Positions 46,552 through 61,552 of a DNA stretch of 64,000 bases are shown one piece after another. Source of the DNA: the human T2T-CHM13v2.0 reference genome, Homo sapiens; NCBI RefSeq assembly GCF_009914755.1, contig NC_060932.1, one strand, 5' to 3'. The notes below the pieces were generated by a model. It saw only the letters and a list, made by a program, of their open reading frames with translations, had not been told where the DNA came from and ran no database searches. How positions within the stretch are numbered: position 1 is the stretch's first letter; the number at the start of each line of letters is the position of its first letter. The translations under genes were made by a program, and so were the position numbers.

Positions 46552-47089
46552 GTGTGATTTCAACACAAGACGGCTGGTCCTTTTTCTATAATGCCGTGGT
46601 GAATGTGCTAAATCCAGTGATGGAGAACAACCAGAAGGCAAGCAAGATGAGGACCAAGAAGAAAAAGTCCAAATGAAGCAGAACACCACTTTACTGAATG
46701 GTATCTGTCTCATATGGGGCATACAGTTGGCTCAGGTGTATTTGTGTCTGCCAAGGGAGTTCTGATGCATAGCGCTTCTTATGGGCTTTGGGCTTTCCCT
46801 GATTATTTGGGCCATTGCTGGATTTTTTTTCACTGTTTGGGGATTTATGTTATGCAGAGCCAGGAACCTCAGTCCAAAGTCAGGAGCAAGCTGTACATAC
46901 AACATGCATGGAAGCTTTCAGTGAATTAATTCTCTTCATCCAGTCTTGGTCATCTTTACTCCTCACTGAGCCAACAGGATATGCCATAAACACAATCAAT
47001 CAAATTTATAAAATATGTCATCGCACCACTTTGACCAGACTGTGAGTCCCCATACGAGGCGGTGAATTGGATCTTGGCCACCTGCCTAT
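46552..47089 (+). pseudogene. fossil SLC7 light-chain (y+LAT, SLC7A6/SLC7A7-like) gene, first coding exon
   Basis: Pyrimidine tract plus cag| acceptor. Frame-repaired translation [137 protein letters not shown], then T|gtgaat. Colinear with y+LAT1 [25 protein letters not shown]...LCYAELGT...PSCFAPY...AACI. Confidence 0.92.
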
Positions 47090-47139
47090 GTGAATGTAGT
47101 ATTTTTCCCTTCAGACTCTAATCAAGGAGATTTCATAGG

Positions 47140-47452
47140 CTTTTTTTTTTTTTTTTTTTTTTTTTAGACAGAGTCTCACTCTGTCACCCAGGCTGGAGTG
47201 CAGTGGTGCAATCTCAGCTCACTACAATCTCTGCCTCCTGATTTCAAGCAATTCTCATGCCCCAGCTTCCCACGTACCCAACCAAGTAGCTGGGACTACA
47301 GGCATGCATCACCACACCAGGCTATTTTTTTGTAGGGACAGGGTTTTGCCATGTTGGTCAGGCTGGTCTTGAACTCCTGACCTCAAGCGATCTACCTGTC
47401 TTGGCCTCCCAAAATGCTAGGACTAAAAGCATAAGCCACTGCACCCAGACCA
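47140..47452 (-). mobile_element. AluS
   Basis: T tract plus antisense Alu, TSD cataggct. Confidence 0.9.
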
Positions 47453-48499
47453 TAGGCTATTTTTAAGGCCCTATCAACCTTATATTTTAAATTGAGCTGT
47501 GAGCCAATCTAATTGTGGGAAGTAGCTGTTTCTACTTCTAGTAATATTCAATTTTTAAACTTAGGGCCTTTTATCACCCTGAAAGTTGTATTCATTTATT
47601 GCAGATTATTTTAATTACAAATTTTATTTGTAATTTTATTTTTATTTTAATTAAATTTTATGAAAAATAGTTGGTCACTTCAGGTTCATTCGTAACTAAT
47701 GGTTTATAGTTAGTGGGTGATGAACCTAGAATGAGAATCTAAATCTTGATAGTTTATTTCTGTTCCATTGCATTTCATTATGAATCATCTATATGTTAAA
47801 AACTGTGGGAACATAAAAACAAAGTCTTGTTCAATGAGCTAAGACACATAGCTTAAGCAAAAATAACATTCCATCAGAAATGTATGAACAAGTACTGTAA
47901 TATTTCAAAGGTGAGAGAGAGAATATATGAATTACTTTTAAGAAACAGTTTCTTAGAGAAGGTGACTTAAAGATTGGATTTTGATGAACAAGAAATATGA
48001 GGATATATACAAGAGAGCATTTCATGAGCAGAATGAGCAATCTAACGGTGGGAAGTAGTCAGGAGGGAAGCCATGGCAACAAGGAAATAAGAGCTGTCTT
48101 CTATGTGAATGGCGTGCCTGGAGCTGTAAAAAAATACAAGGAAGCCTTAGTTTTCTCCACATAAGTAGAAGAGAAGCCTGCTGGGGTTCAGCTCAGGCCT
48201 TTGGACCTAACTCTGAGATCTCCTTTATGAAAATTTTCAGAGCTCATGAAGCCACTCTAATCATAGGGTAGGGAAAGGTAGGAAAGATAAACTAAGTAGG
48301 TAAGTTTAAGAACTACTGCGCAAAATCTATTTCTTTAGCATATAGAATGTAGTTTCATTTTCTTAAATGTAGATTTAAGAGTTTTATTTTTTAAACAATA
48401 GACTTTTGTCCTATTGAAAGTTTTCCATGAACACTGATTCTTGGAATGATGTGTTCCTGTGATGTAATTAGCATAATGTTACTTTTCACTTACTATATT

Positions 48500-48625
48500 C
48501 ATTTTCTCTATTTATTAACTGCCTAAGTTTAAAGTGGGAGACCAAAGTGCAATATATTTTCACGCATGCCAAGGTCTCTACCCTCATCTTAACTATATCT
48601 GTGGGTGGCTATTTCAATATTAAAG
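48500..48625 (+). pseudogene. fossil SLC7 y+LAT-like gene, second coding exon (acceptor lost)
   Basis: From 48511: FINCLSLKWETKVQYIFTHAKVSTLILTISVGGYFNIK then G|gtaag. Gap-free against y+LAT1 [38 protein letters not shown]|G. No AG at the expected 5' boundary. Confidence 0.88.
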
Positions 48626-48867
48626 GTAAGACCAAAAGCTAAGTATATGTAAGTAAATAAGCAAAAATTACCCATGGAGTAGTTAAATAAATATTAATTA
48701 TATAAATATTAATTATATATCAGTGAATATCAACTACTATATTACATGAATATTAACCTATGATATAGTTTTTAGAGACTAGACTGATTAGTAAACTCTG
48801 AGTTAGCTAATATTACAGTTTAAAGAAATGTAAACACATACGCAAATTTGTGAAGCATTTCATATTT

Positions 48868-58473: not shown

Positions 58474-59364
58474 TCCATTAGTTTTTGAGTTTGTAATCTT
58501 AATTACAGTATAGTCATATAAACATTAGTTTTTCTTCATGAAATAACTGTGATTGAAAGTCGTTTCTTCCCCTGACTATACACTATGCTTTCAGGTTATA
58601 CTTGTGTTTTGCTGTTGTTGTTCTTGCTGCTGATGCTTTATGGATTTCAAAATGACGGAAAAGGAAAACAGCATAGGGAAGCTGATCCTCTTCCACACCC
58701 AGAGGGCCATTCTGCTGCCTCTCTTCCAGACACAAAAGGAGACAGAGCAGACATTCATGTGGCTGAATTCCTAATTTTCCATTATAGCTGCCAGCATGTG
58801 TGAAAACAAGCATAAAAACCAAAGACTTACCTTAATCTTCATTTCAGTCTATTTGGCATTTCTTGCACTTCCAAGTCTGAGGGATGAGTTATCTACCACA
58901 GCTAGGAAAATTTATCTCTATGCATTTACATTTGAACATTTTTACCAACTAAATAAAAGATAGATTGCTCTTAACTACTGCAAAAAGATGATTACTTTTT
59001 TCTAATATATGACTAAAATTTCTGCCCTATCTAGTTTTTTACATAGAAAGGTTAATTTCTATGAATCATTGCAAAGATAAAAATAAATTTTGATTAAAAA
59101 TATTTATTCAATGGAAATACTATAAAGGGAGGATTTTAATATTGTTTCTACTGATGTAACTTGTCTTAATGGAAAACATCAGTGGATCATGGCTTTGGGA
59201 ATCTCAGACTCATAATAATTACCACCTGTTTTGTGTTTGCAACGTGCCAGACACGGTAGTAGAGACCAGGATTTCAGAAATAAGTTAGATGTAATTCTGT
59301 CCCCAAATAATTTATGCCTAATAATAAAAACAGGTTTATGTCCACTTTGGATGAAATGAGTTGC

Positions 59365-59634
59365 TCTCATTCTGTTGCTCAGGCTGAAGTGCAGTGGCAC
59401 AATCTCATCTCACTGCAATCTCATTGTTCCAGGTTCAAGTGATTCTTGTGCCTCACCCTCCCGAATAGTTGGGATTATAGATGTGCACCAACACACCCAC
59501 TAATTTTTGTATTTTTAGTAGAGACAAGGTCTTGCCATGTTGGCCAGGCTGGTCTCAAACTCCTGGCCTCACGTGATCCACCCACCTCAGCCTCCCAAAG
59601 TGCTGGGATTACAGTCATGAGCCACTGTGCCCAG
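59365..59634 (-). mobile_element. AluS lacking its tail
   Basis: Antisense Alu text. Confidence 0.85.
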
Positions 59635-60627
59635 CTGGAAGCCAAGATTTTAATGCAAAATAAGAATTATCTAGGGTGAAGCTACAATATTGTGAAGGGA
59701 GTACAGAGCTGGCTTGAGATTAGAAAGGTTTTCTAGAGAGGTCACCCTCTCTAGAGTCAGTTTCAAAGTTGGGTAATACCAAGTGATTAACAAATACATC
59801 AACAGTTAAGGGCAGTTTAGGTGAACAGACTATGTGCAGATCATCTAACATAGTCACTGAAGATTAAGTAAGAATAAGAAATAGGCCTTGCTAAGCACTA
59901 TAGGGAGGGAAGACAACCTAACCGATAATTATGTTAAGTATTATAACAGAAGCGAGCACAATGTCCAAAAACTGCATAGAGGCGGGTATTTCACTCAGCT
60001 CTGCAGATCAGAAAGGCTTCCCAGAACAGTAATGCTTTAGCTGAATCTTAATGAATAAGGATTTTTCCTGTGGTCAGAGAAGTGGGAAGGAAAGGACAGT
60101 TAAGGAGAGATTATACAGAAGATATTGGAAATGGAATGGATAATTTGTGCTCAGTCATTCGGCACTCACTATGTGCTAGACACTGGATGTTATCACAAGA
60201 TGGGGTGGAGATTGATCTTGGACAAGACATACAGCAGCCAGATCATCTTTTTAAAAAGTAAATCACATCATTTTACTCTCCTATTCAACAACCTCCAAAG
60301 TGTGCTCCCCTTGCAAGCATAATAACTATTGTGGGTTCTTAGCATGACCCACACTGTCCAATATGATCAGTTCCCAAAAAATTTCGACAAGCTCACCTCC
60401 TGCCACATGCACTTACTCCCTCTGGCATTTTTTCTGTTTTGTAGGACAAACCTTTGGCTTCCCCAGGGGATTTTCTCCCTCCACCTGGAATGCTCATTCC
60501 TCATCATTTAGGTCTTAGCTCAGATGCTTTCAGAAGCCTTTCATTATCACCATATGAGAGTAACCCTCTTCCCCCAACGCCCTGCCTTAGACAATCTCAG
60601 TCTCATCTCCCTGTTTTTCGTTGTTGT

Positions 60628-60933
60628 TTTTTTTTCCTTTTTTTTTTTTTTTTTTGAGATGGAGTTTCACTCTTGCCACCCAGGCTGGAGTGCAATGGCA
60701 CCATCTTGGCTCACTTCAACCTCCACCTCCTAGGTTCAAGTGATTCTCGTACCTCAGCCTCCCAAGTAACTAGGATTGCAGGCACTCACCACCACGCCCA
60801 GCTAATTTTTTGTAATTTTAGTAGAGATGGGTTTCACCATGTTAACCAGGATAGTCTCAATCTCTTGACCTCGTGATCCACCCACCTCGGCCTCCCAAAG
60901 TGCTGGGATTACAGGTGTGAGCCACTCTTAGGC
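60628..60933 (-). mobile_element. AluS within an L2 remnant
   Basis: T tract plus antisense Alu, TSD-like catctcc. Confidence 0.88.
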
Positions 60934-61402
60934 CCCATCTCCATTTTACTCTCATAGTATTTATTACAATCTTAAAATGCCCATTTCTTTGTGTTATCTG
61001 CCTCCTCCAACAATACTCCACAGAAACAGAGATCTTATTTGTCTCTTAGACACTGCTCTAGCTTCAGCATCTAGAAGACTTGGCAATTATCTATTGGCTA
61101 AATGAATAAATAATGACCTTGAGAGTGAGTAAGCTGAGGGATGTTCATGATCACGAGAAGTGAGATTAGTTTAAAGAGCTTTCCTGGGTAAGAGTAAGCT
61201 CAGAGTAGGAAACTGAAAGGCGGATTGATGAAGATATAAATAATAATCCATGAGGAACTACATTATAAAAGTTTCTTTAAAAAGATTCTTAACATAGTAA
61301 GCATGACTGTATACATTGTGAGTATACAAACCTGGAAATTTATACCAGTGAATTTAAAATTGCATCTCTATAACACCATAAATCAATTTATTGTTTTGGC
61401 AA

Positions 61403-61552
61403 AGTATGGTAGCTATGCTGTCTCTTCTGTTGGAAGACATCTTTCAACTCATTATCTATTATTCTTTTAGCTACTGATTCTATGCCAGGCTCTCAATTAT
61501 AGGATTCATGTGCTTAAGGAAAATATAGCCTGAAAGACCAAATCCAATCAAA
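61403..61552 (+). pseudogene. fossil SLC7 y+LAT-like gene, 150-nt exon
   Basis: Acceptor reads caa, 50 codons, |gtaggt donor. Translates [48 protein letters not shown], gap-free against y+LAT1 [50 protein letters not shown]. Confidence 0.93.

What the first reader, a model, noticed from the sequence alone, without database searches (positions are those of the whole stretch)
46552..61552. Fossil multi-exon y+LAT-type (SLC7A6/SLC7A7-like) amino-acid transporter gene downstream of RIPK2
Seen: four + strand segments, in the right order over 15 kb, translate to pieces of an SLC7 light chain. They are 46552-47089 ([27 protein letters not shown]/PDC), 48511-48625 (FINC...KW...IFTHAK), 57750-57846 (VGSREGHLP...FTP.PALLFN) and 61403-61552 (EDIFQLI.YYSFSY). 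Each ends at a GT donor. Known (from memory of SLC7A7): coding exons end at c.499, 625, 770, 894, 998, 1095 and 1245, so the matching exons are ~541, 126, 97 and 150 nt. The remnants are 538, ~126, 97 and 150 nt with the same phases. Inference: introns at conserved positions exclude a retrocopy. SLC7A7 and SLC7A6 are on other chromosomes, so this looks like a separate y+LAT paralog that died in place (a unitary pseudogene), possibly still functional in other vertebrates. I do not recall an annotation for it but cannot check.
Basis: partly seen in the sequence, partly recalled or inferred. Interest (0 to 1): 0.93.

Follow-up and report, generated by a model that had tools for sequence, protein, structure and literature searches.

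The report
Dead third y+LAT transporter gene
Between RIPK2 and OSGIN2 on human chromosome 8 lies the decayed, multi-exon wreck of a third y+LAT-type amino-acid transporter gene that is still intact at the same place in fishes, frogs, reptiles, birds and some marsupials, so it records a gene lost on the line to humans.

Summary
On the + strand, window 46570-61552 and about 6 kb beyond the window end (to 67422), six collinear exon remnants of an SLC7 light chain are found. They correspond to exons 1, 2, 6, 7, 8 and 9 of a nine-coding-exon gene. Intron positions and phases match human SLC7A6 and SLC7A7. The start codon is lost, there are about 8 frameshifts and 6 in-frame stops, two acceptors are lost, and exons 3-5 are undetectable.

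It is not SLC7A15P, which is on chr2, and it is not a copy of SLC7A6 or SLC7A7. In a careful tree it sits with two marsupial 'Y+L amino acid transporter 2-like' proteins (99/94). Those lie inside a 100/100 third y+LAT clade spanning ray-finned fishes to birds. AU tests reject placing it with y+LAT1 (p 0.001) or amniote y+LAT2 (p 4.5e-5).

Two fused public gene models show the intact gene between the same neighbours: RIPK2+transporter in a swallow, and transporter+OSGIN2 in a cobra. A whole-genome search finds no other human copy. So it is a unitary pseudogene.

No eutherian protein of this clade appeared among the listed best hits. I found no paper or RefSeq row describing it, but I could not check GENCODE or HGNC. 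This is a sound, moderately interesting find: a new member of a known kind.

The parts
46570..47089 (+). Exon 1 remnant, 520 nt, corresponding to aa 1-173 of the Dromiciops orthologue P0035. ACG stands at the start-codon position. There are about 7 frameshifts (near 46591, 46715, 46783, 46823, 46875, 46907, 46989) and an in-frame TGA at 47032. The Cys codon of the FPxC loop is kept at 47041-47043. The donor is GTGAAT at 47090, in phase 1 as in SLC7A6.
48503..48625 (+). Exon 2 remnant, 123 nt (126 minus one codon), with an open frame. The acceptor dinucleotide reads AT instead of AG. The donor is GTAAGA.
   Evidence: Pfam AA_permease E 0.0011, below cut-off
48626..57749 (+). Former introns 2-5. 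Exons 3-5 (P0035 aa 213-336; 145+124+104 nt in SLC7A6/7) are not detectable. The interval holds masked repeats at 49649-53170 and the COX6B1P6 retrocopy.
   Evidence: tblastn at E<=10 and the clade profile gave no hit to profile positions 216-334; hub annotation
57750..57846 (+). Exon 6 remnant, exactly 97 nt. AG acceptor and GTAAGT donor are both intact. In-frame TGA at 57814.
61403..61552 (+). Exon 7 remnant, 150 nt. The acceptor reads AA and the donor is GTAGGT. In-frame TGA at 61475 and TAG at 61526.
61553..64000 (+). Former intron 7, running off the window end. The gene continues outside the window with two more exon remnants, given here in window-style coordinates.
- Exon 8 is at about 64596-64780 (T2T chr8:90956596-90956780). 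About its first 30 nt are replaced by a (GT)n run, one frameshift lies near 64752, and a GTAAGA donor follows.
- The last exon is at 67331-67422 (T2T chr8:90959331-90959422). Its AG acceptor is kept, it has in-frame TAG at 67351 and TGA at 67369, and the terminal TAG sits where the marsupial protein ends.

Best explanation
This is a unitary, non-processed pseudogene. It is the relic of a third y+LAT-type SLC7 light-chain gene, a paralogue of SLC7A6 and SLC7A7, that stood between RIPK2 and OSGIN2 on the same strand.

The gene is intact in ray-finned fishes, coelacanth, amphibians, reptiles, birds and at least two marsupials. On the lineage to humans it lost constraint and decayed in place by neutral mutation: start codon lost, about 8 frameshifts, 6 premature stops, two acceptors lost, exons 3-5 gone, a (GT)n run over the start of exon 8, and repeats plus a COX6B1 retrocopy in former introns. 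It can no longer encode a transporter.

Shown here: the exon remnants, the shared intron positions, the tree placement, the neighbours, and the lack of another human copy.

Inferred: the ancestral protein was a 4F2hc-linked y+L-type exchanger; one deletion removed exons 3-5; and the death happened early in eutherian history.
For: Family and order. PDB hits are to y+LAT1 and y+LAT2 at E about 1e-9, against 7e-6 to 2e-2 for xCT, b0,+AT, LAT1/2 and Asc-1. Six collinear + strand exon remnants were mapped with marsupial, alligator, sparrow and frog proteins. The clade profile gave 9 of 1602 ORFs at E<1e-4, all on the + strand and in order.

Gene structure. The remnant's exon ends fall at the same codons and phases as in human SLC7A6. 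The exon lengths 126, 145, 124, 104, 97, 150 and 184 were verified as AG..GT windows in both SLC7A6 and SLC7A7. Remnant exon 6 is 97 nt with AG/GT intact, and exon 7 is 150 nt.

Phylogeny. The careful IQ-TREE had 51 rows and 516 columns. The third clade has support 100/100, remnant plus marsupials 99/94, and the amniote subclade 98/96. Human SLC7A7 and SLC7A6 fall in their own clades. AU tests reject the remnant with the y+LAT1 clade (p 0.0011) and with the amniote y+LAT2 clade (p 4.5e-5). As a control against reference bias, I reread the remnant with human SLC7A6 or SLC7A7 as guide. The peptides were 98% identical to each other, and both were still placed with the marsupials (97*, FastTree).

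Synteny. In the swallow fused model P0067, aa 157-319 hit the annotated RIPK2 coding exons in the window (67-88% identity) and aa 414-579 hit remnant exons 1-2. In the cobra fused model P0058, the SLC7 part is followed by a part that hits human OSGIN2 at C8:91032730-91048692 (55-75% identity across five pieces), against 45% at the next-best locus on chr16.

Unitary status. A whole-genome search with the marsupial protein gave 64 matches, all at the chr8 remnant or at chromosomal places that I recall as the known SLC7 loci.

Identity. The remnant matches Dromiciops at 207/320 (65%), human SLC7A7 at 165/292 (57%) and human SLC7A6 at 162/291 (56%).
Against: - Synteny rests on two mis-fused gene models. 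I could not inspect any non-human genome directly.
- The remnant is a very long branch (2.1 changes per column), which makes any placement less safe, although three reference guides and two methods agree.
- At columns where SLC7A6 equals SLC7A7 but differs from Dromiciops, the remnant follows Dromiciops in 16, SLC7A6/7 in 9 and neither in 15. That is a modest margin.
- Pfam's general permease models found nothing at E<=0.01 in 5 of 6 pieces.
- Only 2 mammal proteins of this clade were listed, and no monotreme, so the timing of loss is weakly constrained.
- The branching order of the three y+LAT clades is unresolved in the careful tree, and the outgroups were exon-1 fragments only.
Confidence: 0.9

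Rival explanations
1. It is a duplicated (non-processed) pseudogene copied from SLC7A6 or SLC7A7 within mammals, not a separate ancient gene.
For: SLC7A7 and SLC7A6 are the closest human loci to the 80-aa piece, at 47% and 48% identity. The exon structure is the same.
Against: The remnant is nearly equidistant from both genes and closer to the marsupial '2-like' proteins. The tree puts it in a 100/100 third clade, and AU tests reject both alternative placements. Intact members of that clade are fused to RIPK2 or OSGIN2 in a bird and a snake model.
Confidence: 0.03
2. It is the known human SLC7 pseudogene SLC7A15P (arpAT), or a relic related to SLC7A13, which also lies on 8q21.
For: SLC7A15P is the one SLC7 unitary pseudogene described in print. 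NCBI names two caecilian members of the clade 'solute carrier family 7 member 13'.
Against: The unitary-pseudogene table places Slc7a15 at hg18 chr2:20449670-20459798, and a decayed SLC7 hit lies at C2:20.42 Mb in this genome. The locus at C8:87.35 Mb, which I recall as SLC7A13, is only 29-31% identical to clade-3 proteins, against 70-77% for SLC7A6/7.
Confidence: 0.01
3. The locus is dead as a coding gene but survives as a transcribed or regulatory element, for example a loss-relic lncRNA or an enhancer host.
For: RefSeq lists an enhancer at 57411-57540, about 200 nt upstream of exon 6 (hub table). A 2023 paper reports that some gene-loss relics became lncRNAs; I saw search-hit passages of the main text only.
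Against: No transcript is annotated here in the RefSeq table supplied. That paper's one held supplement has no SLC7, RIPK2 or OSGIN2 entry. No expression data were available to me.
Confidence: 0.1
4. The similarity is chance, or derives from a repeat.
For: The individual pieces are short. Pfam found nothing at E<=0.01 in 5 of 6 pieces.
Against: E is 1e-9 against PDB for one ORF alone. Nine collinear same-strand hits came from 1602 ORFs. Splice sites are at conserved phases. The protein-level matches occur only at the SLC7 loci in the whole genome.
Confidence: 0.005

Closest known systems
'Y+L amino acid transporter 2-like' proteins of marsupials, birds, reptiles, amphibians and fishes (e.g. 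P0035 Dromiciops gliroides, P0036 Petaurus breviceps; names given by NCBI/UniRef)
   Same: They share an orthology group with the remnant (100/100 clade; remnant plus marsupials 99/94). The neighbours are the same, RIPK2 upstream and OSGIN2 downstream. The C-terminal stop is at the same position.
   Different: They are full-length ORFs of 505-510 aa with complete AA_permease_2 coverage (P0035, E 4.6e-61). The human copy is broken throughout and lacks exons 3-5.
SLC7A7 (y+LAT1) and SLC7A6 (y+LAT2), human
   Same: They belong to the same subfamily and have the same nine-coding-exon layout with identical intron phases and exon lengths. They are 71-72% identical to the marsupial orthologue over the retained columns.
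   Different: They are different paralogues on chr14 and chr16. The remnant is 56-57% identical to them, and AU tests exclude it from their clades. They are functional genes.
SLC7A15P (arpAT), the described human SLC7 unitary pseudogene
   Same: Same kind of object: an SLC7 light-chain gene that works in other vertebrates and is dead in humans (passages seen in PMC4127817, PMC5877779, PMC8246967, PMC2864566).
   Different: It lies on a different chromosome (chr2) and in a different subfamily; arpAT is described as most similar to b0,+AT. arpAT still works in mouse. For the chr8 gene, no eutherian protein appeared among the listed best hits.

Membership tests
SLC7 heteromeric-transporter light chains (APC fold, Pfam AA_permease_2) | Significant sequence similarity to light chains along the protein, in order | tested here: met
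   PDB phmmer E 1e-9. Clade profile: 9 collinear ORFs at E<1e-4. tblastn with 5 orthologues. Pfam general models failed on 5 of 6 short pieces.
SLC7 heteromeric-transporter light chains (APC fold, Pfam AA_permease_2) | Intact 12-TM open reading frame | tested here: not met
   The human copy has a lost ATG, about 8 frameshifts and 6 stops, and exons 3-5 are missing. The feature is met in orthologue P0035 (Pfam positions 1-408 of 427).
SLC7 heteromeric-transporter light chains (APC fold, Pfam AA_permease_2) | Conserved Cys after TM3 that forms the disulfide with the SLC3 heavy chain (role recalled from the literature and from passages) | tested here: met
   The Cys codon at 47041-47043 aligns with the Cys of the FPxC motif of P0035. 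Function is not testable in a pseudogene.
y+LAT subfamily (SLC7A6/SLC7A7 group) | Closer to y+LAT1/2 than to LAT1/2, xCT, b0,+AT or Asc-1 | tested here: met
   PDB ranking: 41.7 bits for y+LAT1 against 29.6 or less for the others. Own genome: 45 and 43.8 bits against 27.6 or less. Outgroup-rooted trees agree.
y+LAT subfamily (SLC7A6/SLC7A7 group) | Same intron positions and phases as SLC7A6/7 | tested here: met
   Exons 2, 6 and 7 are 123(126)/97/150 nt with conserved phases. The SLC7A6 and SLC7A7 lengths were verified.
y+LAT subfamily (SLC7A6/SLC7A7 group) | y+L transport activity (cationic amino acid against neutral amino acid plus Na+) with 4F2hc | not testable with these tools
   No functional data were found for any third-clade member. 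The activity is inferred from family only.
SLC7A6 or SLC7A7 orthologue or recent copy | Nests within that gene's clade | tested here: not met
   AU p 0.0011 (y+LAT1 clade) and 4.5e-5 (amniote y+LAT2 clade).
Unitary pseudogene | Disabled, non-processed, at the ancestral locus, with functional orthologues in other species | tested here: met
   Disablements. Introns kept. Neighbours shown by fused models. Full-length orthologues.
Unitary pseudogene | No functional copy of the same gene elsewhere in the genome | tested here: met
   Whole-genome six-frame search with P0035 gave 64 matches, all at the remnant or at chromosomal places that I recall as the known SLC7 loci.
SLC7A15P (arpAT) | Located at 2p24, orthologous to mouse Slc7a15 | tested here: not met
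   The table in PMC2864566 gives chr2. This locus is on chr8.

The most novel reading that the evidence does not exclude
Jawed vertebrates ancestrally carry three y+L exchanger light chains, not two. The third, a 'y+LAT3' next to RIPK2, was lost in the stem of placental mammals and survives in humans only as this relic.

If so, placental mammals handle basolateral cationic amino-acid efflux with one gene fewer than fish, frog, chicken and marsupial models. Many public 'y+LAT1', 'y+LAT2' and 'SLC7A13' labels in non-mammals would then belong to this unnamed gene. That would bear on how lysinuric-protein-intolerance models in zebrafish and other non-mammals are read.
Probability: 0.55. Interest if true: 0.6.

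Novelty: new member of a known kind. Interest (0 to 1): 0.5.

Why it matters
- It adds an undescribed entry to the human SLC7 family list, beside SLC7A15P. It also defines a third, pan-vertebrate y+LAT orthology group that current names hide. Members are labelled y+LAT2-like, y+LAT2, y+LAT1, SLC7A7 or SLC7A13.
- It gives a dated-loss candidate for early placental evolution.
- It warns that non-mammalian models of SLC7A7/SLC7A6 biology have a third paralogue that could compensate.
- It flags two mis-fused public gene models.
- It does not change any mechanism of transport, and it may already sit in pseudogene tracks that I could not see.

Tried and rejected
- A word-indexed protein search with the 80-aa piece found nothing: 26 candidates, none at E<=0.001.
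- The representative library gave 33 hits at E<=0.001, none above 50% identity and mostly exon-sized fragments. Its value was P0010 and P0012, which led to the named orthologues.
- Pfam on six remnant pieces: 5 with no family at E<=0.01, 1 below cut-off.
- The search for exons 3-5 with tblastn (E<=10, word size 2) and a clade profile (--max, E<=100) gave only noise for profile positions 216-334.
- Literature. The 2005 arpAT paper is not held. Searches for y+LAT3, SLC7A7-like, SLC7A6-like, slc7a7l and slc7a6l returned 5 papers, all with hits only for 'slc7a7l' (I read the listing only; probably the floxed Slc7a7 allele). SLC7A6P and SLC7A7P returned 0 papers. ripk2+osgin2+slc7a returned 4 papers that look unrelated from their titles and abstracts.
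- The main texts of the 2011 'gene extinction in early mammalian evolution' paper and the 2023 loss-relic paper hold no SLC7 or RIPK2 term. The one held supplement of the latter has no hit.
- One search was rejected for a term longer than four words.
- Considered and dropped: dating by Ka/Ks (no orthologue DNA available), and naming the species behind P0010 and P0012 (unnamed records).

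
Full report
**Observation**

Translating the four stated intervals in one frame gives stops. Three-frame translation shows the quoted peptides. In exon 1 they are spread over all three frames.

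The longest single ORF, 46803-47045 (80 aa), was searched against all PDB chain sequences.
- It hit y+LAT1 at E 1.1e-9 and 1.2e-9, and y+LAT2 at 2.8e-9.
- xCT, b0,+AT, LAT1, LAT2 and Asc-1 followed at 7e-6 to 2e-2.
- Of the 23 sequences listed at E<=10, 17 are SLC7 light chains, 2 are bacterial APC transporters, and 4 are unrelated at E>=0.88.

The window's genome is held (T2T human; the window is C8:90892001-90956000). Searching it with the 80 aa gave 11 matches at E<=10. After the self-match, the best are C14:17.01 Mb (47% identity) and C16:74.07 Mb (48%). By location I recall these as SLC7A7 and SLC7A6.

**Is it the known SLC7 pseudogene?**

Reviews describe one human SLC7 unitary pseudogene, SLC7A15P/arpAT (passages seen). 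The table of unitary pseudogenes in PMC2864566 places Slc7a15 at hg18 chr2:20449670-20459798 (passage seen). A decayed SLC7 match lies at C2:20.42 Mb in this genome. The chr8 locus is therefore something else.

**Orthologues**

A full HMMER scan of 1.84 billion representatives returned 33 hits at E<=0.001, none above 50% identity. Two unnamed fragments carried remnant-specific features.
- P0012 reproduces the out-of-frame leader of the human sequence.
- P0010 joins exon 1 to exon 2 and shares the exon-2 wording.

Searching the named 5.8-billion database with P0010 (longer proteins) gave 925 proteins at E<=1e-10 among 1724 candidates, of which the best 120 were listed. The top two are 'Y+L amino acid transporter 2-like' of the marsupials Dromiciops gliroides (P0035, 509 aa) and Petaurus breviceps (P0036). 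Similarly named proteins of birds, reptiles and amphibians follow.

A second search with P0035 gave 1898 proteins at E<=1e-50 among 8000 scored candidates, again with 120 listed. These two marsupials are the only mammals in that list. Only the best 120 were shown and clusters are at 90% identity, so this is a floor, not a census.

**Exon map**

I ran tblastn of five orthologues against the window plus 70 kb downstream (fetched). The result was six collinear + strand blocks. A frameshift-aware alignment to P0035 and inspection of the boundaries refined them.

| Exon | Coordinates | Length | State |
|---|---|---|---|
| 1 | 46570-47089 | 520 nt | ACG at the start position; about 7 frameshifts; TGA at 47032; donor GTGAAT in phase 1 |
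| 2 | 48503-48625 | 123 nt | acceptor AT; donor GTAAGA |
| 6 | 57750-57846 | 97 nt | AG and GTAAGT intact; TGA at 57814 |
| 7 | 61403-61552 | 150 nt | acceptor AA; donor GTAGGT; TGA at 61475; TAG at 61526 |
| 8 | about 64596-64780 | - | 5' end overwritten by (GT)n; one frameshift |
| 9 | 67331-67422 | 92 nt | AG acceptor; TAG at 67351; TGA at 67369; terminal TAG where the marsupial protein ends |

Exons 8 and 9 lie beyond the window end at 64000. The positions of the frameshifts depend on the alignment penalties. With other guide proteins, 6-7 frameshifts were called over the same exons.

Exons 3-5 (P0035 aa 213-336) were not found by tblastn or by a profile of 19 clade members. That profile gave 9 of 1602 ORFs at E<1e-4, all on the + strand and in order, and only noise for positions 216-334. 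In SLC7A6 these three exons lie within 1.3 kb, so a single deletion could have removed them. That is an inference.

**Gene structure against the paralogues**

I fetched the human SLC7A6 and SLC7A7 loci. At the places where P0035 aligns, AG..GT windows of exactly 126, 145, 124, 104, 97, 150 and 184 nt exist in both genes. The remnant's boundaries fall at the same codons and phases. It is therefore not a retrocopy.

**Phylogeny**

From the listed hits I hand-picked 45 named proteins for taxon spread. All other listed hits were left out. I added:
- P0010;
- human SLC7A6 and SLC7A7, read from their exons;
- two exon-1 fragments of other human SLC7 loci as outgroup;
- the remnant, read through with X at stops.

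The careful IQ-TREE (51 rows, 516 columns) gives a third y+LAT clade of 26 rows with support 100/100. It contains sturgeon, bowfin, teleosts, coelacanth, caecilians, frogs, tuatara, lizards, turtle, alligator, birds and marsupials. Inside it, amniotes have 98/96 and remnant plus marsupials plus P0010 has 99/94. Human SLC7A7 sits in a y+LAT1 clade (97/95) and human SLC7A6 in an amniote y+LAT2 clade (95/99). The frog Pyxicephalus has one gene in each of the three groups.

A FastTree of 64 rows agrees. Holding the remnant with the y+LAT1 clade costs 28.0 lnL (p-AU 0.0011). Holding it with the amniote y+LAT2 clade costs 32.4 lnL (p-AU 4.5e-5).

The read-through was guided by a clade member, so I repeated it with human SLC7A6 and SLC7A7 as guides. 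The peptides were 98% identical to each other, and both still joined the marsupials (97*, FastTree).

Caveats:
- The remnant branch is very long (2.1).
- The order of the three clades is unresolved in the careful tree.
- The outgroups are partial.

Raw identity of the remnant is 207/320 to Dromiciops, 165/292 to SLC7A7 and 162/291 to SLC7A6. At columns that tell Dromiciops from SLC7A6=SLC7A7, the remnant follows Dromiciops 16 times, SLC7A6/7 9 times and neither 15 times.

**Synteny**

Two public gene models are fusions that reveal the neighbours.
- P0067 (Hirundo rustica, 705 aa) has aa 157-319 matching the window at 899-1087, 2899-2949, 3826-4005 and 11226-11321. These coincide with the annotated RIPK2 coding exons (67-88% identity). 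Its aa 414-579 match remnant exons 1 and 2.
- P0058 (Ophiophagus hannah, 974 aa, named OSGIN2) begins with the transporter. It continues with a part that matches C8:91032730-91048692 (+), inside annotated OSGIN2, at 55-75% identity across five pieces. The next-best locus, on chr16, reaches 45%.

Order and strand (RIPK2, transporter, OSGIN2) are as in the human window. I could not inspect any non-human genome directly.

**Unitary status**

A six-frame search of the whole human genome with P0035 gave 64 matches. They fall at the chr8 remnant (five pieces, with stops) and at loci I recall as SLC7A1-A11, A13 and A15P plus the chr16 SLC7A5 copies. Nothing else matched. The C8:87.35 Mb locus (SLC7A13 by recall) is only 29-31% identical. 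The NCBI name 'SLC7A13' on two caecilian clade members therefore looks like a mislabel.

**Timing (inference)**

No eutherian or monotreme protein of the clade was listed. The mouse-based unitary-pseudogene screen lists only Slc7a15 among SLC7 genes. This suggests, weakly, that mouse has no working copy.

The in-frame part of the unnamed fragment P0012 groups with the remnant and the marsupials (95*, quick tree, flagged as long branches meeting). It shares two changes with the human sequence at positions otherwise invariant in the nine other rows shown.

The load of about 8 frameshifts and 6 stops in about 1.1 kb, together with 35% amino-acid difference from the marsupials, fits tens of millions to about 100 million years of neutral decay. 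This is a rough judgement, not a computation.

**Function**

The human locus cannot encode a transporter. The ancestral protein presumably worked as a 4F2hc-linked y+L exchanger. Support for this is the full AA_permease_2 domain in P0035 (E 4.6e-61) and the conserved Cys codon kept even in the relic. No assay of any clade member was found.

**Novelty**

No row for this gene is in the RefSeq table supplied. My paper searches and passages read found no description of it. A zebrafish survey lists an extra 'SLC7A6' co-orthologue, si:dkeyp-120h9.1, without comment. A trout study counts five 'y+LAT2' paralogues.

Noticed in passing
window 54786-55031 (-): An ORF inside the annotated COX6B1P6 retrocopy still matches Pfam COX6B (E 8.9e-6). 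It sits in a former intron of the dead transporter gene.
   Followed up: partly
window 50743-52321 (-): Two long ORFs (223 and 324 aa) lie inside the masked repeat block 50466-53170. Neither has a Pfam family at E<=0.01, so I did not identify the repeat type.
   Followed up: partly
about 64560-64622, just beyond the window end (locus L020, bases about 560-622): A (GT)n microsatellite occupies the place of the first ~10 codons and the acceptor of exon 8.
   Followed up: partly
proteins P0058 (Ophiophagus hannah) and P0067 (Hirundo rustica): These public gene models fuse neighbouring genes: transporter+OSGIN2 and RIPK2+transporter. They are annotation errors, useful here as synteny evidence.
   Followed up: yes
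proteins P0073, P0074 (caecilians), P0101 (Latimeria), P0181 (Siniperca): Members of the third clade carry the source names 'SLC7A13', 'SLC7A7' or 'y+LAT1'. By the trees these names belong to other genes.
   Followed up: partly
G000 C2:20420028-20420629 (+): A decayed SLC7-like match with stops lies at the place where the literature puts SLC7A15P (arpAT).
   Followed up: partly
protein P0010 (unnamed source): This fragment is closest to Dromiciops, but about 9 residues of the TM1 region are missing and unrelated sequence follows exon 2. It may be a decaying copy or a poor model.
   Followed up: no
window 57411-57540: A RefSeq-listed enhancer lies about 200 nt upstream of relic exon 6. I did not examine whether it relates to the dead gene.
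   Followed up: no
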